Below, piece by piece: positions 4,635-63,199 of a stretch of DNA of 64,000 bases (the first letter of the stretch is position 1; the number at the start of each line of letters is the position of its first letter). Made by a program: the position numbers and the translations under genes. The DNA comes from a virus, in the IMG/VR virus record IMGVR_UViG_3300045988_081205. One strand, 5' to 3'. Under the pieces are notes generated by a model. The model worked only from the letters and a program-made list of their open reading frames with translations, searched no databases and was not told where the DNA came from.

Positions 4635-5177
4635 ATGAAAAACACTGTGAAGCACATTATCTGGAGTTCTTGGATCAATGAAGATGAGTGGAGAGACAAT
4701 GTCAAAGATGAATGTAAAGAAAATGGTATCGAGTACGACGAAAAAGAACTTTACCGTATGGCCTATGAGTTGAATAGCTATTATCTGGAAGATGAGCGCA
4801 TGAACCTTGATATTGACATTCCTAGCGGGATTATTGCTATCGCTGATTTAGGACTTTGGAATGGACGGCATACAGGGTATAAAGAAATCGGAAATAACAT
4901 TGCTGATTGCCTGTATTATAACACGGATGAAGCGGAGTTTTGGGTTGACATGCACGGTGTTTTCCATGCGTCTATGTCGCATCACGACGGGGTTAATTAT
5001 GTGGTATTTAAGGCATGGAAAGACGGCGTAACAGATGAACAGAAGGAAAACGTGATGGATGCTATTTATTGCGGCCAGTGTACCGAAAGAATGTTGCGCC
5101 GTTATACTCGCAACTTGGGCGGCGATATTGCGAAAGTATATGGCTGGCGGATCAGCACTGGAAAAAAGGAGGCATGA
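4635..5177 (+). CDS. hypothetical protein
   Basis: ORF track; GGGAGA upstream. Confidence 0.65.
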   Translation: MKNTVKHIIWSSWINEDEWRDNVKDECKENGIEYDEKELYRMAYELNSYYLEDERMNLDIDIPSGIIAIADLGLWNGRHTGYKEIGNNIADCLYYNTDEAEFWVDMHGVFHASMSHHDGVNYVVFKAWKDGVTDEQKENVMDAIYCGQCTERMLRRYTRNLGGDIAKVYGWRISTGKKEA

Positions 5178-5305
5178 AGGCAATGAAAAAATCAAGACGC
5201 CGTCTAAATCCCATTTACTGGATTTTCCAGTATTTGGGCGGTCTGGTAGCTATTGGAAGTTTGTTTTTCATTCCATATCTAGCAGCAAAAGTTTTAGGGA
5301 GTTAA
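5174..5305 (+). CDS. small membrane protein (43 aa)
   Basis: ATG 5174 after AAGGAGG, ATGA overlap with upstream stop; hydrophobic core IYWIFQYLGGLVAIGSLFFIPYL. Confidence 0.45.
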   Translation: MKAMKKSRRRLNPIYWIFQYLGGLVAIGSLFFIPYLAAKVLGS

Positions 5306-5308
5306 ATT

Positions 5309-5515
5309 ATGCATACTGTGAAATATTGGGATTCAAAATTGTACAAACTCCAGAAATTGGCAGATTCTATAAACTACCATATTGATAGCGATACAGATTA
5401 TTTACAAATTTGTAAATTATTGCCAGCGTCAAGAAGCAAGCCCGCACCCGTCGATATTCTGCCACTTTTTTACAAGGTGGTCGAGCGGGTACAGAGTGTA
5501 AAAAATTGTAAATAA
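5309..5515 (+). CDS. hypothetical protein
   Basis: ORF track; tightly packed. Confidence 0.45.
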   Translation: MHTVKYWDSKLYKLQKLADSINYHIDSDTDYLQICKLLPASRSKPAPVDILPLFYKVVERVQSVKNCK

Positions 5516-5531
5516 TAGGGAGGATTTTACC

Positions 5532-5717
5532 ATGGAAAGAAATAGAAAAATCCGTTGCTATGTCAATAATGAATATTGCTTTACTACAACAAAATTTCCA
5601 AATCAGAAGGCATTGAAAAATTATATAAGAAGCGTAAAACATATTGAAATTGCGTCAATTCCTATGAAATATGTGACGATTTACAACTATGATAAATTAA
5701 CTTTTGAATACGTCTAA
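5532..5717 (+). CDS. hypothetical protein
   Basis: ORF track; GGGAGG upstream. Confidence 0.5.
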   Translation: MERNRKIRCYVNNEYCFTTTKFPNQKALKNYIRSVKHIEIASIPMKYVTIYNYDKLTFEYV

Positions 5718-5735
5718 CTAGGGGGAGATTTTACC

Positions 5736-6050
5736 ATGTTATTTTATGGAAAATATGAGAACGGGCGGCGCTATATTTGCGCGTATGATGAAGAAAAGCA
5801 CGGATTCCCGCGCGTGGTATCGGACAACTTGACATTCATATATCACAACTCTGTTAGTGTAAACCGCGTTTATAAAACAGAGCGGGAAGCAATGGCGAGC
5901 AGTTGGAGTAAGTATAGCAATAAGCCCGTTATCATGCCGGACGGCACGGAGACAACGCCCGCGCGTTATTTTGGAACGGAAAATATAAACAACGTGTTTA
6001 TCCCATGGTATGACGTAAAGGGCGAACTTTGGCCGGGTGAGACGGCATAG
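5736..6050 (+). CDS. hypothetical protein
   Basis: ORF track; GGGGGAG upstream. Confidence 0.55.
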   Translation: MLFYGKYENGRRYICAYDEEKHGFPRVVSDNLTFIYHNSVSVNRVYKTEREAMASSWSKYSNKPVIMPDGTETTPARYFGTENINNVFIPWYDVKGELWPGETA

Positions 6051-6159
6051 AAAGCCCGCCACACCGCAAACAGAAAAGACAAGTAAACATAGCCGGACGC
6101 GCTGAAAAGCCCGTAGCAAGGCGCTGAGCGGCTGAGAATATGAGAAGGAGTAAATTATC

Positions 6160-7485: not shown

Positions 7486-7530
7486 CATATATAGAGGTGT
7501 GAATTGAAAATTGAAAAAGGAGAATCGACA

Positions 7531-8265
7531 ATGAAAAATGAAATTCGATATATGATTGCAGGAATTGGATTGGCATTGATTGGATTTACAGCTTGTGGTG
7601 GATTCATCTATACGCAGATTCAAGAATACAATTCAATGATGGAGCAACGGCGCGAATCTGAGCCGGTTGTCAAATGGATTAAATGCAAGCCGATTGAGAC
7701 AACTGAAATTGAATATCAGCAAAATGATGATGTAGTCATGATGGATACTGTAGTGACTGAGATCGAACCTGAATCGCAGACCAAAGAACAGGAATCAGAA
7801 TCCACATTCGTCTATAATCCGCCATTTCACCTGACAGAATATGAAACATGGTTTGTTAATTGTGTGGTAGCTGGTGAAGCTGCTGGTGAGCCATATGAAG
7901 GTAAGGTGGCTGTTGCTCAATGCTATTTTGATGCAATGCTCAAGGACGGCTTGTCTGCTACAGAAGTAAAATTGGCATATGGATATAGTGGCTGGAATGA
8001 GAATCTGGATAAGCAAGACCCTAAAGCATATGATGAAGTCAAAAATGCTGTAATGGATGTGTTTTATGGCGGTAAATTCGTAACCGATAAGCCGATTCTA
8101 TATTTCTATAATCCTGCATATGGCTATAGTGATTGGCATGAGGCTCAGGAATATTGGGGAAGCATTGCTAACCATAAGTTCTTTTATCTTGCTGAAGATG
8201 AAAATGCAGAATGGGCAAAGATTTTCTTGACAAAAGTAAATGAATATGGTATAATTGAGCCGTAG
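7531..8265 (+). CDS. membrane-anchored SleB-like cell wall hydrolase
   Basis: ATG 7531 after AAAGGAG; N-terminal TM segment YMIAGIGLALIGFTACGGFIY; VVAGEAAGEPYEGKVAVAQC resembles the Hydrolase_2 (SleB) core. Confidence 0.6.
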   Translation: MKNEIRYMIAGIGLALIGFTACGGFIYTQIQEYNSMMEQRRESEPVVKWIKCKPIETTEIEYQQNDDVVMMDTVVTEIEPESQTKEQESESTFVYNPPFHLTEYETWFVNCVVAGEAAGEPYEGKVAVAQCYFDAMLKDGLSATEVKLAYGYSGWNENLDKQDPKAYDEVKNAVMDVFYGGKFVTDKPILYFYNPAYGYSDWHEAQEYWGSIANHKFFYLAEDENAEWAKIFLTKVNEYGIIEP

Positions 8266-10518: not shown

Positions 10519-10611
10519 GGCGGTGTCGGTTAATGGTAAGCCAGCTGGCCTATACCCAGTTTAGTCCTAGATTGGGGCAAAATCAGAGTTCGACCCTCTG
10601 CGCCGCTACCA
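10519..10611 (+). tRNA. class II-type tRNA or tRNA-like element, apparent anticodon UAU, encoded CCA
   Basis: Hand fold: acceptor GGCGGTG/CGCCGCT, D arm GGTT-AATGGTA-AGCC, anticodon arm GCTGG-CCTATAC-CCAGT, 23-nt variable region, T arm CAGAG-TTCGACC-CTCTG, ACCA end; C at position 33 is atypical. Confidence 0.5.
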
Positions 10612-11921: not shown

Positions 11922-11998
11922 GGCTCAGTACCCCAATCAGCAGAGGGAGCGGATTCAAAATCCGTAAAGTGTGGATTCGAATTCCACCTGAGCTACCA
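11922..11998 (+). tRNA. tRNA-like element, apparent anticodon CAA, encoded CCA
   Basis: Acceptor GGCTCAG/CTGAGCT, anticodon arm GCGGA-TTCAAAA-TCCGT, T arm GTGGA-TTCGAAT-TCCAC, ACCA end; D arm weak (3 bp, no GG in loop). Confidence 0.45.
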
Positions 11999-12459: not shown

Positions 12460-12531
12460 GACCGTGTCAGTTAATTGGTAGGCTCTCTGTCCATAGCAGT
12501 TGAAATGTAGGTTCAAGTCCTGCCTCGGTCA
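12460..12531 (+). tRNA. tRNA-like element or degenerate tRNA (loop reads CAU), no CCA
   Basis: Acceptor GACCGTG/CTCGGTC (one mismatch), D arm AGTT-AATTGGTA-GGCT, T arm GTAGG-TTCAAGT-CCTGC; anticodon stem only 3 bp. Confidence 0.3.
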
Positions 12532-54880: not shown

Positions 54881-57800
54881 CTAACTACGTCTTGTCACAT
54901 ATTGTTGCGCCAATTCTCTAAGTCCACTTACGAACGATTGAGCATCGCGCACATTGGGTAATGTAACATTGCTAATGTTGAGCGTCTGCGCCAAACTCTG
55001 TGCTTTTTGAGCCAAAGACGACAACATATCGCTAGGTGTCATAGACCCCCAACGCCATAGATTGTCCGTAATGCCGCTTGGTAGGATACCATCGCCCTGA
55101 TTCAGCACTCTCAGCTCTGGACCATTTTCACCAACTAAAGATAAGCCGCTGTCGGCATTACGTGTGCCACGAGCATAACCTTGAGCGCCTATCTTCTTCA
55201 TTTCGGATGCATAGTTTAATAAGTATCCTTTAGTAATATCATATTGAGCTTTATCATATAAGTCTTGAACTTCGTCTTTCGTTAATGATTCACTAAATAA
55301 TTTGTCATATAATCGTTGATCGGCAAGTCCCTCAAAATCAAGCGCATCTGCTACATTGTATTCAGTCGCTAAAAGATCAGCTGGTATTTTTTTGTAGCCA
55401 CCATGCATAGCGGCTGATGTATTGCTTTGGTCAATATAACCGAGCTCATCTTGCTTAAATTCTCCCGGTTTAGTGCTCCAAGCATCGGTCTGATGCTCCC
55501 AAGCCTCTTTGTATAAATCACGGTTGCTAGCCCATGTGTCTTGTTTGCTAACATCTGTTCCGAAATATTTTGAAGCGGCTTCATCGCCATATGCCTCTCT
55601 ATATTCCTTAATCATTTGTTGCTTAGTATCTCTGAGCTGAGTCCAATATGCAACTTCAGCCTGAGACTGAGCGTTCTTTATCTTTTCGCCAAAGTCGGTT
55701 TGAACACCATAAGACCTTACATTTTCTTCACGAATCTGTTTCTTTAGCTCGGCTTCACGTTGCCGCCTTTCTTCTCTGGCTGCCTGTGCTTCGTTATATG
55801 CTATAAGAATTTGTTTGTAAGCATCACCGGGCTTCATTGCCTCACCGAAAGTATCATATAGACCCTCTTCAGACATCCCCTCATACACAGTTCCAGATAT
55901 CTGTCCTTGGGCATATTGTAACAGATGCTTACGAAGAGCGTTTGGGTAATTTAGAACATCACCGCCATTGCTGAAATACTTTTTAAAGAACGCTTTCGAT
56001 TCATCGCCTAGCATAGACATTAAGTCTTTAGTTTGGCTCTGTTCTATACCACGATACGTCTCTTGATAGTCTTTCTGCGCACTAGATATAGCATCGGAAT
56101 CTTGCATATATTGGAAGCGCCCTTCACTATATACTAGCATACGGCGCTGTTTAGCTTTTTCTAATGCCTCTAGCTTTTCTTCAAGGGCTATCTTATCCTC
56201 TAGTAGCTGATTCTGACGGTCATATTCTTCTGCTGCTTCTTCAGCTATTCCTTTTTCAGCGGAGGCGTTCTTTACAGCTTTCGCAACTGCGGCATTATAT
56301 TGTTCTTCGATGCTGGCACCCATCTGACGAATCATCGCCCAAGCTTCTTCAATGGCCGTAATAGCGCTATTCGCGTTTCCGCTTGCAAATGCCTGATGAA
56401 TAGAGCCTGTTATAGATGATACAGTAGACGATACTTTGTCTTTTAGCCCATCTAGCAAACCACTAATAGAACCGGACAAATCGCCGCAATTCTTCTCAAT
56501 ATAAGTGATAAGCTCGTCAACACTATATGTGCCCTCAGATACAATCTCAGAAAATAGCGTTTTTAGTACTTCAACAAATTGAGCAAATTCAGCCTCAGCT
56601 TGTTTATACTGTTCACTTGTTTCATCAAATCCTTGTTGCTTGAGCTGAGATAGGTAATCCTGATAGGATTGATATATAGTGGCTACTTCTGATAGAGTTG
56701 ACTGTAAATCAGATTTACTAATATCTGGGTCAATTAGTTTGAGACGTGTTGACTCGTCTGTTAGATATTCGCGCAGTTCTTCAATGGTATTGATGGTTTG
56801 AGCTTTGACCTCTTCTTGGTCTTTTTTGGTTGAGGATGAACCTCCTCCGCCACCACCACCTGTTGAGACAAACGGCTTGATGGATTCGAGCTGTTTCTTA
56901 TACTCTTCCATCTTCTTTTTGTAATTGCTTTGCCCAGCCGATTGTATTTGAGACGTAACCCATTTATTAAATCCCGCTATATCAGCATCAGCGCTTTTAC
57001 CAAAAGTACGAAAATAAGCTTGTCGCAAGCCCTCCATATCGCTAGTTGTACCAGCGGCTCTACCACCAACAAGGTCAGACGCAGTACTAACGCCAGCCAT
57101 ATCCATCATAGACGCTAATTGGCTAGTGGTAATCATTGCAGCATTGCCAACCTCTTGAATAGCTAGTATCAACGCGCTAAAATCAGCTTGAGCTTGTGCC
57201 TGTTGTGCCTGAATAAATGACTGAGCCATACTAGCCATAGAACCAGATGTAGATAATGCCTGTTTAGCCGCTTCTGTTAATTGTCCATTAGCATCAAATA
57301 GAGAATTGACCAGTACACCACTAGCATCATCCGCATTTTCATTTGCACCACGATATTGGTCAAGCGCGGCTATGTAGGTATCTAGCTTAGATGCTGATTC
57401 TTCTTCTGCTACACCAAGCTCTTGTACGTCATTAGCTGCTCCGCTTAAATCAGTATTTTGTACTACACCATTAAGCGTTTCCCAGTTATTGATAAAATCA
57501 ACTTGCCACTGGTCAAGATTTTCGCCATTATCTGCAAGAATTTTTAGAGCATTATAATAATCCTCTGTTGATGTTACAAGCTCACCTACTTGCCGAGTAG
57601 CAGAATCACTAGACGTAATAACATCTTGAGTATATTTTGACCAATTAGCTAATGACTGCCCTTGAGATTGCGCCCAATCAATCGTCTTTTGCTTTGTTTC
57701 GGTGATTGTAACACCCAATCCATTAAGAGCGTTTTTAGCAATTTCAGCAGCCTCGCTCCAATTTCCAAGAGAGGATGCCTCTAAATAGGCATCATATGAT

Positions 57801-59281
57801 GTAGAATCTACATACTCATGTAGAGCTTCAAACGCTGCATTGGTTGCATCTTCAACAGACTCGAACGTTCCCTTTAGCGCATTTGCTTGTTCATCTGTTA
57901 TAGTTAGAGTTTGTTGCCAAGTTGTAAGTGTTTTGTTACCAAATTCATCTGTGCTTAATCCGCTTACGGTTGCGCCAGTTACTTGTTTACCACCAGTTGT
58001 AACTTTACGGGCTGCCTCAACTGTGTCTGTCTGACGTAATTCAATCAGCTTTTCATAAGCTTCAATCTGCTTCTCTAGCTGCTCACGTTCTGCTTGTAGT
58101 TCTGCTTCGTTACCATCATATGGTGTATTATTAAGCTCATCTAGCTTTTTCTTAGTTTCTTCATACCCTGTCTTGGTATTTTCTAGCTCTTGGTTAGCTT
58201 CGTCCATAGAGGCAACAAGATTCTCAAACTTATTGTTTTCTACGGCTTGATTTACAGCTTTAATAACTTCAACTAAAGCTGTAATAGCTGCAACTGTGCC
58301 ACCAACTATGAGCGCGATTTTGCCACTGGCAAGCATACCTAGGAACGAGTCGCCACCAACTCCTAGATTTTTAAGTTGTAAACCAACCTCAGCTATCTTG
58401 CCTACAGTTTGCCCAACGATACCAACTAGACCAGTAACACCAGTGCTTAATACACCAATTCTAGTAACAGCTGCGCCGACATCATTGTTAGCAAAATTAA
58501 GCATAGCTGTACCAGCATTGATGAAACCGCCAACTAGGTCTTTTGATAATACGCGATTTGCAAAATCTTCAAATTCTGCTTTAAGAGCCTGTTGCTTTGC
58601 TTCTAGGCTCTCCATATATTTACTGTTTTCCTGTGCCGCAGAGCCAGCAGACTCTAAGGCTGCTTTGGTTGCATCAGCCGCATGACCAAAGTTCTGCATC
58701 ACACTGGCAAGGACTTTATATTGATTCTGTCCCGCGATAGTATCACCAAGAGCCGTTCTTTGTGCATCTGTCATTGAATCCCATTTAGGCTTCAATTCAG
58801 ACAGCACATCAAATGTACTCTTTAGACTACCGTCTACATTTTCTACTGTAATGCCATATTCTGCAAGCGCATCTTGATTCTTTACAATACGAGCCGCAAT
58901 AGTAGATAATCCACGCGCAACCTGACTACTGCGCCCTTGCATGATTTCTGTACCGCTAGTTACGAGACCTATGACTTGTTCAAATGAATTGCCATAAGTA
59001 GCCATACCACTAGCGGCAATTTCCATTGCTTGTGATATGTCATTGGTGCCTACACTAAAATTGTTTGCCACTTCATTGTATGCGTCTATAACATGAGTGG
59101 CAAAATTAGCATCTTTACCAAATGCACGAATCTGAGAAACAATAGATGCGGCTGCATCTTCTGCTGAAACAGCCGTATCAGCTACGTTCTGATAAGAAGC
59201 AGCAACTTTTGCAAGCATAGCGGCATCCGAATCGTTGAATCCGCTCTTGCGGAACATAGATGCTGCTGATACCATCTCTGA
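54881..59281 (-). CDS. tail tape measure protein, 3' exon (or C-terminal fragment)
   Basis: 1464-aa ORF with coiled-coil-rich repeats and a GGGGGGSSS tract; N-terminal SEMVSAASMFRKSGFNDSDAAML continues the TP901-type domain begun in 59873..60298. Confidence 0.75.
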   Translation of the reverse strand, partial: SEMVSAASMFRKSGFNDSDAAMLAKVAASYQNVADTAVSAEDAAASIVSQIRAFGKDANFATHVIDAYNEVANNFSVGTNDISQAMEIAASGMATYGNSFEQVIGLVTSGTEIMQGRSSQVARGLSTIAARIVKNQDALAEYGITVENVDGSLKSTFDVLSELKPKWDSMTDAQRTALGDTIAGQNQYKVLASVMQNFGHAADATKAALESAGSAAQENSKYMESLEAKQQALKAEFEDFANRVLSKDLVGGFINAGTAMLNFANNDVGAAVTRIGVLSTGVTGLVGIVGQTVGKIAEVGLQLKNLGVGGDSFLGMLASGKIALIVGGTVAAITALVEVIKAVNQAVENNKFENLVASMDEANQELENTKTGYEETKKKLDELNNTPYDGNEAELQAEREQLEKQIEAYEKLIELRQTDTVEAARKVTTGGKQVTGATVSGLSTDEFGNKTLTTWQQTLTITDEQANALKGTFESVEDATNAAFEALHEYVDSTSYDAYLEASSLGNWSEAAEIAKNALNGLGVTITETKQKTIDWAQSQGQSLANWSKYTQDVITSSDSATRQVGELVTSTEDYYNALKILADNGENLDQWQVDFINNWETLNGVVQNTDLSGAANDVQELGVAEEESASKLDTYIAALDQYRGANENADDASGVLVNSLFDANGQLTEAAKQALSTSGSMASMAQSFIQAQQAQAQADFSALILAIQEVGNAAMITTSQLASMMDMAGVSTASDLVGGRAAGTTSDMEGLRQAYFRTFGKSADADIAGFNKWVTSQIQSAGQSNYKKKMEEYKKQLESIKPFVSTGGGGGGGSSSTKKDQEEVKAQTINTIEELREYLTDESTRLKLIDPDISKSDLQSTLSEVATIYQSYQDYLSQLKQQGFDETSEQYKQAEAEFAQFVEVLKTLFSEIVSEGTYSVDELITYIEKNCGDLSGSISGLLDGLKDKVSSTVSSITGSIHQAFASGNANSAITAIEEAWAMIRQMGASIEEQYNAAVAKAVKNASAEKGIAEEAAEEYDRQNQLLEDKIALEEKLEALEKAKQRRMLVYSEGRFQYMQDSDAISSAQKDYQETYRGIEQSQTKDLMSMLGDESKAFFKKYFSNGGDVLNYPNALRKHLLQYAQGQISGTVYEGMSEEGLYDTFGEAMKPGDAYKQILIAYNEAQAAREERRQREAELKKQIREENVRSYGVQTDFGEKIKNAQSQAEVAYWTQLRDTKQQMIKEYREAYGDEAASKYFGTDVSKQDTWASNRDLYKEAWEHQTDAWSTKPGEFKQDELGYIDQSNTSAAMHGGYKKIPADLLATEYNVADALDFEGLADQRLYDKLFSESLTKDEVQDLYDKAQYDITKGYLLNYASEMKKIGAQGYARGTRNADSGLSLVGENGPELRVLNQGDGILPSGITDNLWRWGSMTPSDMLSSLAQKAQSLAQTLNISNVTLPNVRDAQSFVSGLRELAQQYVTRRS

Positions 59282-59301
59282 CGGTTATAAATTATCTAAT
59301 A

Positions 59302-59505
59302 TTATAGCTTTCCCCAACGCCAATCATCATCTAATCCCCATTCATTGATTCGCCGCTCTTCCTCTTTTGCTCGGCTATCAATATGATAAGGTTGTTGATT
59401 ATTTTGTTGATTGTCATGTTTTCCAAACAATCCAACTATCACACAGTATAATGTCCAGATACCAATAGCTGGAAAAATCAACATAATAAGCATTAAAGCA
59501 AACAT
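59302..59505 (-). CDS. 67-aa membrane protein encoded within the insert
   Basis: ATG 59505 is 8 nt after AAGGAGG; TM MFALMLIMLIFPAIGIWTLYCVIVGLF; bracketed by a 14-bp inverted repeat. Confidence 0.55.
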   Translation of the reverse strand: MFALMLIMLIFPAIGIWTLYCVIVGLFGKHDNQQNNQQPYHIDSRAKEEERRINEWGLDDDWRWGKL

Positions 59506-59531
59506 GATAGATACCTCCTTTAAGTATCTAT

Positions 59532-59560
59532 AACATAGCACATATTAGATAATTTGTCAA
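59532..59560 (-). promoter_or_regulatory. sigma70-type promoter inside the intron-like insert
   Basis: Minus strand TTGACA (59560-59555), 17 nt, TGcTATGTT. Confidence 0.5.
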
Positions 59561-59872
59561 GGGGTTTTCAAGCCCTTCCCGAATAATTCTTTACCCTATA
59601 TATTTGGAGGGTCGCCCTGTATATTCTGTTGACACATCCCTCATCAGGACTTCGCGCCCAATCTGCCCTTTTATGATACATTATTTATCATTGATTCTTT
59701 AGGTTTTTCAACCATGGAATCATCCTTATCGTCTTTCTGCTTTCGCACTAATTCATTGTTAATAATGAATAATTTTCACACTCAGGCATATCTCATCCTC
59801 ATGTTGTAGTGATAAGGCTCTTGAGGCTTTCAAGGGTTTAGGGGCTGTTCTCTATGCACATTTACCATCTGT

Positions 59873-60298
59873 ACATACCGGCTCAGACCGATTTGGTTTA
59901 CCGGTTCTTGCTACTTCTCTGCCAGATTGACTTAGCTTTGTAACATATTTATCAAGTGCTGTACCCTGTAAATCACTGACCTTCTTAAAGTCGGTCATAG
60001 CATCATCAAGATTCTTGACTTGCTCATACATACTGCTTAAAGCACCTGTTGCTAAATCAAGAACTTGTCTAAACTGCTGATAAGTAACAGCAATATTTTC
60101 TGTTTCTGCGTTAAGATTTTTCGTGGATTGAGTTACACCATCTAGCTCTTTTTTAGTTCGCTCTGCACCATCTGCTGTAACACCAATCTTTAACTTAGTA
60201 TCTTTATTATTTTGGATTTCTCTAAGTTGTTTCTTTATACTCTCTTCCTGCAGCTGAACATCAACCAGAATCGAGTAGTTAGAGTTACTTCCAGCCAT
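59873..60298 (-). CDS. tail tape measure protein, 5' exon (or N-terminal fragment)
   Basis: TDFKKVSDLQGTALDKYVTKLSQSGREVARTGKP matches the start of the TP901-type tape measure domain; the ORF runs into a stop 21 nt inside the insert. Confidence 0.65.
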
Positions 60299-60301
60299 TC
60301 A

Positions 60302-60802
60302 TCACACTCCCTTTTTTATTTGTGAGTAGGCTATGAGGATTCCTTCTGCGCAATCATCCTCATTTTTTTTGCTACTTGGGGCAACCCATGCCAATTCGAG
60401 GCCAAATTCTTCATTCGCCATCTCTATGGCTTTTTTCTTCAGAACATCTCTTTGTAATCCAGCTCTAGTACCATCAAAGAGATTAAGGTCGCCACGCCAT
60501 TTACTTGGCATCAAGAAGCATGGCTTTATCTTGAAGCCAGCACATAATGCTAATATCACGCCTTGTACTGCGCCCAATTTTTCTATGGTAGACGCTCCTT
60601 TTTTTAATGGCACTTCCTCAGCATAGAGAATTGTCGGCTTATACTGTCTAAATATGCTTGATAATTCCATAGTAAGCCCCATTACTCTGTCATGCCAATC
60701 ATCGCCCTTTGGCTTAATTGTGCCATATGCAATGAGCCGCCCATTATCAAATATAGACCATCCAGTAGATGACGTACTAGCATCTAATCCTGCTATAATC
60801 AT
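60302..60802 (-). CDS. ruvC: RuvC-like Holliday junction resolvase
   Basis: IAGLDASTSSTGW start, LYAEEVP, C-terminal DDCAEGILIAY: the RuvC-family acidic residue pattern. Confidence 0.7.
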   Translation of the reverse strand: MIIAGLDASTSSTGWSIFDNGRLIAYGTIKPKGDDWHDRVMGLTMELSSIFRQYKPTILYAEEVPLKKGASTIEKLGAVQGVILALCAGFKIKPCFLMPSKWRGDLNLFDGTRAGLQRDVLKKKAIEMANEEFGLELAWVAPSSKKNEDDCAEGILIAYSQIKKGV

Positions 60803-62128: not shown

Positions 62129-63199
62129 TTAGCCGGTTACAGTAACCTCAGCATAACCAACAACGGCTGGACCATTGCCGGGGTCAGCACCCTTTAGAGT
62201 TGCAGAAATATGAGCCGTGCCAGCCTTAGCCGCAGTGACTACGCCAGCCGTACTAATAGTAACCACACCATCTCCATCTTCTTCAGCGAACGTAAAGTTA
62301 GCATTATCAACAATCTTAGGAGCCTTATTGCCATCAAATAGCACATAGCAAACTAGAGCCTGAGTGCCCCCATTTGCTAGAGCAATATCAGCATCCTCAA
62401 ATGCGATGGCTCTGACTTCGTTCTGCCACTTTGCGCCAAAGATTTCTTCGGTCATAGTGCCATAGTAAGATTCAGCCTCGCAAGAATCAGTGTTATCAAC
62501 TGCTAGAGCAGAGCCAGACAGAGAAACAGTAGCCGCAGAAGTTGCGGTAAGATTAAGGTCTTGTGCGCCGTCAAGCTGTAGTCTAGGAATATCAGTGATT
62601 AGACGACCAACTTTGGTTGCATTGTTCGTAGTGGAAATATCCGCATTGAACAGGTCGTTAAGAATGATGACATGAAGCTCATCTGGTACATAGTCAACTG
62701 GGATAATAATGCTATCAGCATTGGCATTCTGATAGAAATACATCACACAATACTTCTCGCCAGCCTTAGCGTTAGGAATAGCCATTGTATATGCGCCAGC
62801 CGCTTCAGTAATAGTGCCAACGGTATAGTCCTTCTCGCTAGGAGTACGATACCAACCAATCATAGAACCAGCAACAGCGGTTGGAGCCTGTGGCAAAGTG
62901 ACCTTACCAGCAGTCTGAACGGTTAGCTCATTTTGATAAACACCAAGACCGCCCTTCTGTAGATCAACACCAAGGTTAGCGGCAATATACTCTAGCTTGA
63001 AGCAAGAGTCAGTAATCTGAACAGTTAGACCAGAGTCATGGTAATACTTACCGATTAGTGCATTGCCCTTACCTCCACGGATTTCCTCCGAAGAAATAGT
63101 AAAGCCAAAGGTTGACTCGGTTAGAGTCTTAGCGAAGCCGATGATAGTCTGACCCTTAAGGAGAATAGCATCACCAACGCCAGCTAGGAATTTTCTCAT
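62129..63199 (-). CDS. major tail (tube) protein with C-terminal Ig-like (Big_2-type) domain
   Basis: Position upstream of chaperone and tape measure; C-terminal VVTISTAGVVTAAKAGTAHISATL...AEVTVTG resembles Big_2; strong terminator follows. Confidence 0.55.
   Translation of the reverse strand: MRKFLAGVGDAILLKGQTIIGFAKTLTESTFGFTISSEEIRGGKGNALIGKYYHDSGLTVQITDSCFKLEYIAANLGVDLQKGGLGVYQNELTVQTAGKVTLPQAPTAVAGSMIGWYRTPSEKDYTVGTITEAAGAYTMAIPNAKAGEKYCVMYFYQNANADSIIIPVDYVPDELHVIILNDLFNADISTTNNATKVGRLITDIPRLQLDGAQDLNLTATSAATVSLSGSALAVDNTDSCEAESYYGTMTEEIFGAKWQNEVRAIAFEDADIALANGGTQALVCYVLFDGNKAPKIVDNANFTFAEEDGDGVVTISTAGVVTAAKAGTAHISATLKGADPGNGPAVVGYAEVTVTG

What the first reader, a model, noticed from the sequence alone, without database searches (positions are those of the whole stretch)
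59276..59891. Tape measure gene split by a ~0.6 kb insert with group I intron hallmarks
Minus-strand ORFs 60298..59852 and 59275..54881 read as two parts of one TP901-type tape measure (...KYVTKLSQSGREVARTGKP // SEMVSAASMFRKSGFNDSDAAML...). About 0.6 kb separates them. On the minus strand I see three intron-like features.

1. An 8-bp P1-like helix, UAUGU|ACA (59877-59870) with UGUGCAUA (59860-59853), puts a G-U wobble exactly at U59873, which is a codon boundary.
2. GUCAACAGAAUAUA (59633-59620) and AAAGAAUUAUUCGGG (59592-59578) resemble the group I R and S elements. Their CAGAAUA and UAUUCG parts pair as a P7 with the usual bulged A and G-C pair, with a compensated A-U where Tetrahymena has C-G.
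3. G59282 or G59276 would give in-frame ligation (...EPVC-SEMVSAAS... or ...EPVC-MVSAAS...). A second in-frame 5' option after U59891 gives ...TGKPN-SEMVSAAS....

I do not know of a described intron in a tape measure gene.
Basis: partly seen in the sequence, partly recalled or inferred. Interest (0 to 1): 0.8.

Follow-up and report, generated by a model that had tools for sequence, protein, structure and literature searches.

The report
Group I intron splitting phage tape-measure gene
The tail tape-measure gene of this gut phage is interrupted by a 618-base self-splicing-type (group I) intron; such introns are already known in tape-measure genes, but this one evades the standard detector and carries a small membrane-protein gene instead of the usual homing nuclease.

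Summary
The split is real, and the insert has the architecture of a group I intron.

- **Boundaries.** Uninterrupted homologues and an empty site (ACT GGT|TCA GAA) put the intron at 59899..59282 on the minus strand, 618 nt. It follows U59900 and ends at G59282. Splicing would give ...VARTG|SEMVSAAS... and a 1599-aa protein.
- **Guide sequence.** UCUGA-GCCGG (59887-59878) pairs with both exon ends, forming P10 and P1 with a U.G at the cleavage site.
- **Covariation.** In 25 distinct homologous introns, 72 modelled pairs are 98.3% paired, and 25 pairs show compensatory changes.
- **Pseudoknot.** The P3/P7 pseudoknot covaries across further lineages.
- **Detection.** Rfam finds nothing, even at E<=10. 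A profile built from Rfam-validated relatives hits the P4-P5 region at E=1.2e-12.
- **What is unusual.** There is no homing endonuclease. A conserved promoter, ribosome-binding site and small membrane-protein gene sit in a loop closed by a covarying helix near the 3' end.

Splicing itself is untested.

The parts
59900..60298 (-). Tape-measure exon 1 (133 codons, M...VARTG); last base U59900
   Evidence: ORF. Junction fixed by uninterrupted homologues VARTGSEMV and the empty site ACTGGT|TCAGAA. Joined translation.
59282..59899 (-). Group I intron, 618 nt, from A59899 to terminal G59282
59900..59904 (-). P1, exon strand CCGGU (U59900 pairs with G59882 as U.G at the cleavage site)
   Evidence: pairs 8-34 to 12-30 are paired in all rows; pair 9-33 changes CG->UA in 2 rows. 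Further lineages covary at two more pairs.
59878..59887 (-). Internal guide sequence: UCUGA (59887-59883, P10 strand) followed by GCCGG (59882-59878, P1 strand)
   Evidence: Read directly. With U59877 it is the 11-mer TCTGAGCCGGT, the complement of the ligated junction allowing G.U; 0.03 such matches expected per window. P10 covaries in L074 (UCAGG with UCUGA).
59853..59877 (-). The exon-1 frame stops at UAG 59854-59852, which overlaps its 3' strand.
   Evidence: 4-5 pairs with compensatory changes. Stop codon.
59842..59845 (-). P3 5' strand GCCC (pairs with 59617-59614)
   Evidence: Invariant in alignment A2, and predicted independently by RNAalifold. Other lineages have GCUC/GAGC, CCUCC/GGAGG, CCUCUC/GGGAGG, UCUCUC/GGGAGA and GAAGUG/CACUUC.
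59657..59836 (-). P4-P5 domain: P4 CCC 59836-59834 / GGG 59659-59657; J4/5 UUGAAA; P5 GCCU 59827-59824 / GGGC 59668-59665. Extension: P5a 59817-59811/59730-59724; receptor-like P5b 59804-59778; GAAA hairpins P5c 59747-59738 and P5d 59713-59702; P5e 59691-59673.
   Evidence: nhmmer profile of 12 Rfam-validated introns hits 59841-59694, E=1.2e-12. P5a-e covary. P5 pair 85-256 changes GC->AU in L074 and L059. The P4 register is ambiguous: RNAalifold prefers CCCUU/AAGGG.
59632..59655 (-). P6/P6a hairpin (GCG..GUCC-UGAUGAG-GGAU.UGU)
   Evidence: pairs 272-284 and 274-282 each show a compensatory change in 11 of 25 rows; pair 268-287 changes GU->AU once.
59622..59628 (-).
   Evidence: pair 293-342 is CG/UA/GC; pair 297-339 is AU/GC/CG/GU; pair 295-341 (G-C) is invariant.
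59614..59617 (-). P3 3' strand GGGC; it lies between the two P7 strands, so P3 and P7 form a pseudoknot
59593..59612 (-). P8 hairpin ACCCU...AGGGU
   Evidence: pair 311-328 changes CG->GC in 3 rows.
59580..59585 (-).
59559..59577 (-). P9 hairpin AAGGG-CUUGAAAAC-CCCUU
   Evidence: all 5 pairs show compensatory changes.
59532..59560 (-). Sigma-70-like promoter TTGACA-17-(TG)cTATGTT inside the intron
   Evidence: A TTGACA-17-TAnnnT site occupies this position in all 27 introns.
59542..59555 (-). 5' strand AAAUUAUCUAAUAU of the long-range helix that loops out the ORF
   Evidence: a 10-18 bp helix is present in all 27 introns, in five different sequence versions. L059 has another version.
59302..59505 (-). 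Intron ORF, 67 aa: N-terminal transmembrane segment plus a C-terminal ..NEWGLDDDWRWGKL tail. Shine-Dalgarno AAGGAGG at 59520-59514.
   Evidence: More than 1000 metagenomic clusters belong to the family, none named. No Pfam, PHROG, NCBIfam or PADLOC family.
59289..59302 (-). 3' strand AUAUUAGAUAAUUU of the long-range helix; it ends 7 nt before the terminal G
59282..59282 (-). Terminal (omega) G of the intron
   Evidence: G is invariant while the two bases before it vary (CC, CU, AC, UC, UA).
54881..59281 (-). Tape-measure exon 2 (1466 codons plus stop), starting UCAGAG AUG = S E M...; UCAGA (59281-59277) is the P10 exon strand

Best explanation
The insert is a group I intron in the tail tape-measure gene of a roughly 100-kb phage of gut Clostridia, related to Enterocloster phages with an SPbeta-like tail module.

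**Proposed mechanism (inferred from the established group I pathway).**
- The late tail transcript, read on the minus strand, folds so that the guide sequence GCCGG (59882-59878) pairs with the exon end CCGGU (59904-59900). This places the U59900.G59882 wobble at the cleavage site.
- A free guanosine bound at the P7 G59626-C59581 site attacks after U59900.
- The adjoining guide bases UCUGA (59887-59883) hold the 3' exon UCAGA (59281-59277) in P10.
- The terminal G59282 then enters the G site and the exons are joined to ...ACC GGU|UCA GAG AUG....
- The product is one 1599-aa TP901-type tape-measure protein reading ...EVARTG-SEMVSAAS....
- Ribosomes that read unspliced RNA stop at UAG 59854-59852, at the end of P2 and before the catalytic core.

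**The cargo.**
- The 3' third of the intron is a loop closed by a 14-bp long-range helix (59555-59542 with 59302-59289). This helix brings the 3' splice site back to the core.
- The loop holds no homing endonuclease. It carries a promoter, a ribosome-binding site and a 67-aa membrane-protein gene.
- That gene is probably expressed on its own, independently of splicing.

**Status of each step.**
- Shown by sequence comparison: the boundaries, the helices and their covariation, and homology of the P4-P5 domain.
- Inferred: the chemistry, that splicing actually occurs, and what the small protein does.
For: **Junction**
- Uninterrupted relatives read VARTGSEMV.
- Intron-less L007-L009 have ACT GGT TCA GAA ATG, exactly the predicted ligation.
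- The joined product gives single uninterrupted matches across residue 133/134: PF10145 at 124-317 (profile 6-201), score rising from 74.3 to 81.8 bits, and TIGR01760 at 84-376.

**Guide sequence**
- The 11-mer is complementary to the ligated junction, with 0.03 matches expected per window.
- P1 changes together with the exon: ACU GGU with GCCAG in L003, L018 and L035; AGC GGU with GCCGC in L086; CGGGG with CCCCG in L074.
- P10 changes together with the 3' exon in L074.

**Structure**
- On 25 distinct sequences, 72 pairs are 98.3% paired, against 91.5% in shuffles (0 of 500 reach the observed value) and 27-42% when partners are slid.
- 25 pairs carry compensatory changes, against 13.6 in shuffles and 0-4 when slid.
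- RNAalifold independently recovers P1, P2, P3, P5a-d, P6a, P8 and P9.
- P3 appears in six complementary versions, and the central P7 pair in four types, with the G-C pair invariant. P3 and P7 cross as in group I introns.
- The terminal G is invariant.
- The long-range helix occurs in at least five sequence versions.

**Homology**
- An nhmmer profile of 12 Rfam-validated group I introns from related contigs hits 59841-59694 at E=1.2e-12. It is the only significant hit in the window (source introns).

**Context**
- Relatives carry further tape-measure inserts with HNH or homing-endonuclease ORFs.
- A related contig has an Rfam-scored group I intron in its tail tube gene.
- Group I introns in tape-measure and tube genes are documented (PMC2504315).
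Against: - Rfam RF00028 gives no hit on the window at gathering score. It also gives none at E<=10 on 1.4 kb or on 646 nt, and none on the shortest relative, L023.
- The P3-P8 half lacks the P7.1/P7.2 elements of the typical phage IA2 introns found nearby. P3 is only 4 bp.
- P4, P5 and P6 are invariant in the close family, so their exact register rests on homology and on a few changes in distant lineages. RNAalifold prefers a different P4.
- In other lineages of the same intron the cleavage-site pair is C-G, C.A or G-C rather than U.G. G-C is unusual for group I introns.
- In L059 the positional P3 strands do not pair; only a shifted 4-bp alternative exists.
- The single-sequence folding energy is only mildly better than shuffles (z = -1.9).
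- There is no RNA or protein evidence of splicing.
Confidence: 0.85

Rival explanations
1. The insert is an inactive relic of an intron, or splices too poorly to matter. The tape-measure function would then be supplied by two separate polypeptides: a 148-aa N-terminal piece and a 1464-aa piece starting at ATG 59275.
For: - Both pieces are open reading frames, and the second starts with ATG.
- Rfam does not recognise the RNA.
- Some lineages lack the U.G at the cleavage site.
- Gene callers annotate the pieces separately in every contig.
Against: - Compensatory changes keep nearly every helix intact in 25+ variants, including exon-IGS pairs and the helix that positions the 3' splice site. A dead intron would not preserve these.
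- The ATG is the conserved Met of the SEM motif, present in uninterrupted genes too.
- No Shine-Dalgarno sequence precedes that ATG.
- The frame and the exact junction are preserved in all copies.
Confidence: 0.08
2. The insert is a non-intron accessory cassette ('moron': promoter plus a small membrane-protein gene) that landed in the gene. The conserved upstream RNA structure would then serve the cassette, for example as a regulatory leader, rather than splicing.
For: - A promoter, ribosome-binding site and ORF are conserved in all 27 copies.
- The cargo varies from 1 to 3 paralogous genes.
- There is no homing endonuclease.
Against: - The structured part lies upstream of the promoter, so it would not be in the cassette's own transcript.
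- It pairs with both exon ends.
- It has the group I helix order and pseudoknot.
- It is homologous to validated introns.
- The boundaries are exact to the base against an empty site.
Confidence: 0.04
3. The insert is another kind of intervening element: a group II intron, an intein, or a translational bypass.
For: At 618 nt, the size is within the range of ORF-less group II introns.
Against: - No Rfam group II domain hit, and no GUGYG 5' end or domain V seen in the sequence.
- In-frame stop codons exclude an intein.
- 618 nt is far longer than any known translational bypass, which is about 50 nt in T4 gene 60 (own knowledge).
Confidence: 0.01

Closest known systems
Group I introns TMP-IVS1, IVS2 and IVS3 in tape-measure genes of Bacillus cereus-group prophages (Tourasse & Kolsto 2008, PMC2504315)
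   Same: - Same host gene type: a TP901/PhageMin_Tail tape measure longer than 1200 aa.
- Several alternative insertion sites within the gene.
- P1 and P10 adapted to the site.
- Some copies lack a complete homing endonuclease.
- Companion introns occur in the tail tube gene, as in related contig L007 here.
   Different: - Those introns are typical IA1/IA2 members, which the authors relate to known phage introns.
- This one gets no Rfam hit, lacks P7.1/P7.2, sits in gut Clostridia phages, and carries a promoter-driven membrane-protein gene.
- I did not compare sequences with those introns directly.
Rfam-validated group I introns (RF00028) in related viral contigs, e.g. L055 384-670 (100.6 bits) and L007 2774-3092 (57.3 bits, tail tube gene)
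   Same: - Shared J3/4-P4-J4/5-P5 region.
- Shared P5 extension with the motif CUACAAC-R-U-R-AGGAUGARAUAUGCCU-R-AG-Y-GUGA and GAAA hairpins.
- Similar R (UCAAC..GA.UA) and S (AAGA..UA.UC) elements.
   Different: - Their P3-P8 half contains P7.1/P7.2 and the canonical GACUA/UAGUC P7.
- The window intron has 4 nt between P7 and P3', and GAAUA/UAUUC.
- The profile alignment does not extend past P5e.
Phage group I introns with an ORF looped out of a peripheral helix, such as the T4 td, nrdB and sunY/nrdD introns that encode homing endonucleases (own knowledge)
   Same: - An ORF sits in a peripheral loop closed by a long-range helix.
- The ORF has its own expression signals.
- An in-frame stop lies soon after the 5' splice site.
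   Different: The ORF here is a 67-aa membrane protein with no nuclease motif. It is present in 1-3 paralogous copies in relatives.
Multi-intron phage structural genes: mycobacteriophage Cluster J capsid and tail genes (PMC3706429); Staphylococcus phage Twort (own knowledge)
   Same: Self-splicing introns in late structural genes, with several introns per gene in relatives (L059 has at least three in its tape-measure gene).
   Different: Different hosts and genes. Splicing was shown experimentally there, not here.

Membership tests
Group I intron | P1: the end of the 5' exon pairs with an internal guide sequence, with a U.G wobble at the cleavage site | tested here: met
   CCGGU (59904-59900) pairs with GCCGG (59882-59878), including U59900.G59882. 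Covariation appears at three P1 pairs across lineages. Caveat: other lineages have C-G, C.A or G-C at the cleavage-site pair.
Group I intron | Terminal (omega) G as the last intron base | tested here: met
   G59282. It is invariant in 27 distinct introns and 8 further-lineage introns, while the preceding bases vary.
Group I intron | P10: the guide sequence pairs with the start of the 3' exon | tested here: met
   UCUGA (59887-59883) pairs with UCAGA (59281-59277), 5 bp directly next to P1. A compensated version occurs in L074 (UCAGG with UCUGA). P10 is absent in the L070 lineage.
Group I intron | Core helix order P3-P4-P5-P6-P7-P3'-P8-P7'-P9, with the P3/P7 pseudoknot | tested here: met
   Structure tested on alignment A2. 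P3 has six complementary versions, P7 has four pair types, and P8 and P9 covary. P3 and P7 cross. The register of P4, P5 and P6 rests mainly on homology.
Group I intron | Guanosine-binding site: a conserved G-C pair in P7 next to a bulged nucleotide | tested here: met
   G59626-C59581 is invariant in all lineages. The bulged nucleotide is A59627 (C in most relatives). This tests sequence only; binding was not tested.
Group I intron | Match to the Rfam RF00028 covariance model at or above the gathering score | tested here: not met
   No hit at gathering score. No hit at E<=10 on 1401 nt or 646 nt. Relatives L003, L005 and L006 give none at E<=1, and L023 none at E<=10.
Group I intron | Sequence homology to established group I introns | tested here: met
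   An nhmmer profile of 12 RF00028-scoring introns hits window 59841-59694 at E=1.2e-12, covering profile positions 55-176 of 321.
Group I intron | Guanosine-dependent self-splicing | not testable with these tools
   Needs an in-vitro transcription and GTP assay, or RNA-seq junction reads.
Subgroup IA2 (typical phage group I introns) | P7.1/P7.2 helices between P7 and P3' | tested here: not met
   Only UACA (59621-59618) lies between the P7 5' strand and P3'. The Rfam-scored relatives do have this insertion.
Mobile intron with a homing endonuclease | Intron ORF of the LAGLIDADG, GIY-YIG, HNH or His-Cys box type | tested here: not met
   The only ORF is a 67-aa membrane protein with no Pfam, PHROG, NCBIfam or PADLOC family. 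Other tape-measure inserts in relatives do match HNH/homing-endonuclease PHROGs.
Group II intron | GUGYG 5' end, domain V/VI, Rfam group II models | tested here: not met
   No Rfam hit. The intron starts AAACC.
TP901-family phage tail tape-measure protein (TIGR01760 / PF10145) | Profile match above the curated cut-off, continuous across the joined exons | tested here: met
   TIGR01760 scores 99.9 bits (cut-off 28.8) at 84-376. PF10145 scores 81.8 bits (cut-off 33.2) at 124-317.

The most novel reading that the evidence does not exclude
This may be a distinct lineage of group I introns that has swapped the homing endonuclease for a promoter-driven cassette of one to three small membrane-protein genes. 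The intron would then act as a harmless docking place for accessory ('moron') genes inside an essential late gene. It would persist because the cargo benefits the phage rather than by homing. One guess at that benefit is membrane-level exclusion of superinfecting phages, or control of lysis or injection. The lineage also seems to tolerate non-wobble pairs at the cleavage site.
Probability: 0.3. Interest if true: 0.6.

Novelty: new variant of a known kind. Interest (0 to 1): 0.45.

Why it matters
- **Annotation.** Gene callers report two or more fragments plus a 'hypothetical' small gene in hundreds of gut-phage contigs. The standard Rfam model misses the intron, so tape-measure length is mis-estimated in this phage group, and with it predicted tail length.
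- **Biology.** The intron shows that group I introns in phage structural genes can carry cargo other than homing endonucleases. That raises testable questions: how does such an intron spread or persist, and what does an abundant, unnamed small membrane-protein family (more than 1000 clusters) do?
- **Limit.** It is not a new kind of element. Introns in tape-measure genes have been known since 2008.

Tried and rejected
- **Rfam.** cmscan at gathering score and at E<=10 on the window, and on relatives at E<=1 or E<=10, found no intron family. I treated this as a limit of the model, not as refutation, because comparative evidence is strong.
- **DNA search of GenBank phages.** blastn in distant mode found no match. 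Only protein-level relatives exist.
- **Target-site duplication.** The exon-1 read-through (..NRSEPVC) resembles the start of exon 2 (PSEMVS). This is explained by the guide sequence being complementary to both exon ends, so I rejected a duplication.
Rejected against homologues and the empty site.
- **Hammerhead-like CUGAUGA at 59647-59641.** The C is a stem base that covaries (C/G). Only the loop UGAUGAG is invariant, and there is no Rfam hammerhead hit. Rejected.
- **Hairpin CUUGA/UCAAG (59834-59819).** It is broken in L005-type sequences (UGAAG), so it is not part of the model.
- **P4 register.** Two models remain: mine (CCC/GGG plus GCCU/GGGC) and RNAalifold's (CCCUU/AAGGG). The nhmmer alignment to canonical introns, L059's CCAAU/AUUGG, and the GC->AU change in P5 favour mine. 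This is not settled.
- **Covariance model of the family.** Not built, because the core exceeds the length the tool will calibrate.
- **Small ORF.** No family in Pfam, PHROGs, NCBIfam or PADLOC, and no names among more than 1000 homologous clusters. I did not run structure prediction, judging it uninformative for a 67-aa single-pass protein.
- **Second copy of the 11-mer guide sequence (7657-7667).** It lies inside an unrelated ORF, with no intron-like flanks.

Full report
**1. The observation**

On the minus strand, ORF 60298..59852 (148 aa) is followed by ORF 59275..54881 (1464 aa). The downstream ORF matches Pfam PhageMin_Tail only from profile position 21, so the domain is cut at its start. 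A query made by joining the two pieces aligns in one piece (98% coverage, about 36% identity) with the single tape-measure genes of Enterocloster phages PMBT24 and CB473P1-3. In those phages the same RuvC-like gene precedes the tape measure. The gene is therefore really split.

**2. Exact boundaries**

Metagenomic homologues that are not interrupted at this point read ...VARTGSEMV(S/M)AA... (P0010, P0024, P0054). In the window, exon 1 reads ...GUA GCA AGA ACC GGU and the downstream frame opens with UCA GAG AUG GUA. The only junction that reproduces the homologues is after U59900 and after G59282.

- This gives a 618-nt insert at 59899..59282.
- The joined product is 1599 aa.
- Intron-less contigs L007-L009 carry ACT GGT TCA GAA ATG at this spot, base for base the predicted ligation product.
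- On the joined protein, PF10145 (residues 124-317, profile 6-201, 81.8 bits) and TIGR01760 (84-376, 99.9 bits) run uninterrupted across the junction.

**3. Splice-site recognition elements**

Twelve bases into the insert lies UCUGA-GCCGG-U (59887-59877).

- GCCGG pairs with the exon end CCGGU, placing U59900 opposite G59882. This is P1 with the wobble at the cleavage site.
- The adjoining UCUGA pairs with the first five bases of exon 2, UCAGA. This is P10.
- The 11-mer is the complement of the ligated junction, with 0.03 matches expected per window. A second copy at 7657-7667 lies in an unrelated ORF and appears to be chance.

The pairing tracks exon changes in relatives:

| Relatives | Exon end | Guide sequence |
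|---|---|---|
| L003, L018, L035 | ACU GGU | GCCAG |
| L086 | AGC GGU | GCCGC |
| L074, L094 | ACG GGG | CCCCG |

In L074 the 3' exon is UCUGA and the guide is UCAGG. The last intron base is G in all 27 distinct full-length copies and in 8 introns from further lineages, while the bases before it vary.

**4. The RNA core**

Exact-pattern scans of viral contigs, plus look-ups of contigs encoding homologous exon-2 proteins, gave more than 40 copies at the same site. I aligned 25 distinct cores (A2, 370 columns, 89% mean identity) and tested a 72-pair, 15-helix model.

| Measure | Observed | Shuffled 3' partners | Partners slid 1-3 columns |
|---|---|---|---|
| Cells forming a standard pair | 98.3% | 91.5% (0 of 500 shuffles reach the observed value) | 27-42% |
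| Pairs with a compensatory change | 25 | 13.6 | 0-4 |
| Covariation score | 0.208 | 0.088 | 0.014-0.036 |

- Compensatory changes occur in P1, P2, P5a, P5b, P5c, P5d, P5e, P6a, P7, P8 and P9 (all five pairs of P9).
- RNAalifold, which knows nothing of group I introns, recovered P1, P2, the long-range P3, P5a-d, P6a, P8 and P9.
- P3 (GCCC 59845-59842 with GGGC 59617-59614) is invariant in that set. A third scan brought in more distant lineages in which P3 is GCUC/GAGC, CCUCC/GGAGG, CCUCUC/GGGAGG, UCUCUC/GGGAGA or GAAGUG/CACUUC.
- P7 is C-(A)-GAAUA 59628-59622 with UAUUCG 59585-59580. Its central pair occurs as A-U, G-C, C-G or G.U, its outer pair as C-G, U-A or G-C, and the G-C pair next to the bulge is invariant.
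- P3' lies between the two P7 strands, so the two helices form the pseudoknot that defines the group I core.

**5. Relation to established group I introns**

Rfam finds nothing in the insert: not at gathering score, not at E<=10 on 1.4 kb or 646 nt, and not on the shortest relative. However, a 34-nt motif of the P5 extension is shared with many introns in other viral contigs that do score 52-100 bits with RF00028. One of these lies in the tail tube gene of a related contig (L007).

An nhmmer profile built from 12 of those validated introns hits the window only at 59841-59694, with E=1.2e-12. That alignment matches:

- canonical J3/4 with UAAA;
- canonical P4 with CCCUUG;
- canonical J4/5 with GAAA;
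- canonical P5 with GCCU;
- the P5 extension, including its GAAA hairpins.

This alignment, L059's CCAAU/AUUGG, and a GC->AU change in P5 support my P4/P5 register over RNAalifold's alternative. The point is not settled.

The P3-P8 half is compact. Only four bases separate P7 from P3', so the P7.1/P7.2 elements of the neighbouring IA2-type introns are missing. P7 also reads GAAUA/UAUUC instead of GACUA/UAGUC. These differences probably explain the Rfam miss (inference).

**6. The 3' third and its cargo**

After P9 (59577-59559) comes TTGACA-17-TATGTT with a TG extension (59560-59532). Then come AAGGAGG (59520-59514) and a 67-aa ORF (59505-59302) with an N-terminal hydrophobic segment and a C-terminal ...NEWGLDDDWRWGKL.

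- The stretch AAAUUAUCUAAUAU (59555-59542) is the exact complement of AUAUUAGAUAAUUU (59302-59289), which ends 7 nt before the terminal G.
- All 27 introns have such a helix of 10-18 bp, 5-12 nt from the 3' end, in five unrelated sequence versions. L059 has a sixth.
- The ORF region is thus a looped-out insertion, and the 3' splice site is brought back to the core, as in ORF-bearing group I introns.
- All 27 introns keep the promoter-like site, and almost all an SD-ATG.
- The loop holds one to three paralogous small membrane proteins that share a (D/E/N)(W/Y)G motif near the C-terminus.
- A profile search finds more than 1000 clusters, all unnamed and without Pfam domains. PHROGs, NCBIfam, PADLOC and Pfam give nothing meaningful.
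- A sampled hit lies in the same context in a human-gut contig.
- No homing endonuclease is present. Other tape-measure inserts in relatives (L003 about 4673-6114; L007 6943-9128) do encode HNH or homing-endonuclease-like proteins.

**7. How it most likely works**

The mechanism below is inferred from the established group I pathway.

- The late transcript folds.
- Guanosine bound at G59626-C59581 attacks after U59900.
- P10 and the long-range helix position the 3' exon.
- G59282 replaces the cofactor and the exons are ligated, restoring one tape-measure protein.
- The exon-1 frame stops at UAG 59854-59852, before the core. This is the usual arrangement that keeps ribosomes from unfolding phage introns (own knowledge).
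- Transcripts from the internal promoter lack the core and would simply express the small protein.

How an endonuclease-less intron spreads is unknown. Co-conversion driven by the endonuclease-bearing introns nearby in the same gene, and ordinary recombination, are plausible (inference).

**8. Caveats**

- There is no experimental evidence of splicing.
- There is no Rfam hit.
- P4-P6 pairs are mostly invariant.
- P3 in the L059 lineage pairs only in a shifted register.
- The cleavage-site pair is C-G in the L005 group, C.A in L070/L090, and G-C in L073/L074/L094. C.A can mimic the wobble (own knowledge), but G-C is unusual for group I introns. The window itself has the canonical U.G.
- The folding energy of the single sequence is only mildly better than shuffles (z = -1.9).

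**9. Novelty**

Group I introns in tape-measure genes, at three sites, and in a tail tube gene were described in Bacillus cereus-group prophages in 2008 (PMC2504315). Introns in tail and capsid genes of mycobacteriophages were shown to splice (PMC3706429).

What is new here:

- an intron lineage invisible to the standard model;
- its wide occurrence in gut phages of roughly 50-115 kb, whose tape-measure genes carry up to three or more introns;
- a promoter-driven membrane-protein cargo in place of a homing endonuclease. Full-text searches found no description of such cargo.

**Verdict:** a real group I intron with corrected boundaries. It is a new variant of a known kind, of moderate interest.

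Noticed in passing
window 7657-7667 (+): A second exact copy of the 11-nt guide sequence TCTGAGCCGGT lies inside ORF 7504-8265 (...RRESEPVVKW...). Expected matches per window are 0.03. The flanks are unrelated to the intron and no profile hit occurs there, so it is probably chance.
   Followed up: partly
L003 about 4673-6114; L007 6943-9128; L059 2700-4260 (-): Tape-measure genes of relatives are interrupted at other sites too: after IGLV, after LAG, after YMESL, after LTE and after IDAV. Some of these inserts carry 360-383-aa HNH or homing-endonuclease-like ORFs (phrog_559). L059 has at least three inserts in the first ~250 codons. Rfam did not score the L003 insert either.
   Followed up: partly
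L074, L094, L086 (3' of the intron): In these lineages the exon after this intron stays open for only about 8 codons (SEM[IV]EA[AT]T) before the frame breaks again. That suggests a roughly 24-nt micro-exon between two introns.
   Followed up: no
L007 2774-3092 (+): A canonical Rfam group I intron (57.3 bits) interrupts the YomU-type tail tube gene of a related contig after a short first exon. The window's own tube-like gene (62129-63199) has no such hit.
   Followed up: partly
L005, L013, L030, L037; L070, L090; L073, L074, L094 (5' junctions): The pair at the cleavage site is C-G, C.A or G-C in these lineages instead of U.G. The guide base changes together with the third base of the Gly codon.
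   Followed up: partly
window 59804-59778 with 59747-59738 and 59713-59702 (-): The P5 extension holds a motif like the 11-nt GAAA-tetraloop receptor (U-R-AGG / CCU-R-AG, in which the two R positions change together) and two GAAA-capped hairpins. This suggests an internal tetraloop-receptor clamp. The same module occurs in many Rfam-scored phage introns.
   Followed up: no
window 60302-60802 (-): A RuvC-like resolvase gene sits directly upstream of the tape-measure gene inside the tail module. This order is conserved in Enterocloster phages PMBT24 and CB473P3 and in metagenomic relatives.
   Followed up: no
window 10519-10611, 11922-11998, 12460-12531 (+): The tRNA calls disagree. ARAGORN reports a 93-nt tRNA-Ile(tat) and a tRNA-Leu(caa). 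Rfam reports the Leu gene and a weak tRNA (30.2 bits) at 12460-12531, but not the Ile gene.
   Followed up: no
L021, L024 (introns of 1058-1066 nt); L032, L033, L045: Longer versions of the same intron carry two or three tandem paralogues of the small membrane-protein gene in the looped-out region, so the cargo cassette expands and contracts.
   Followed up: partly
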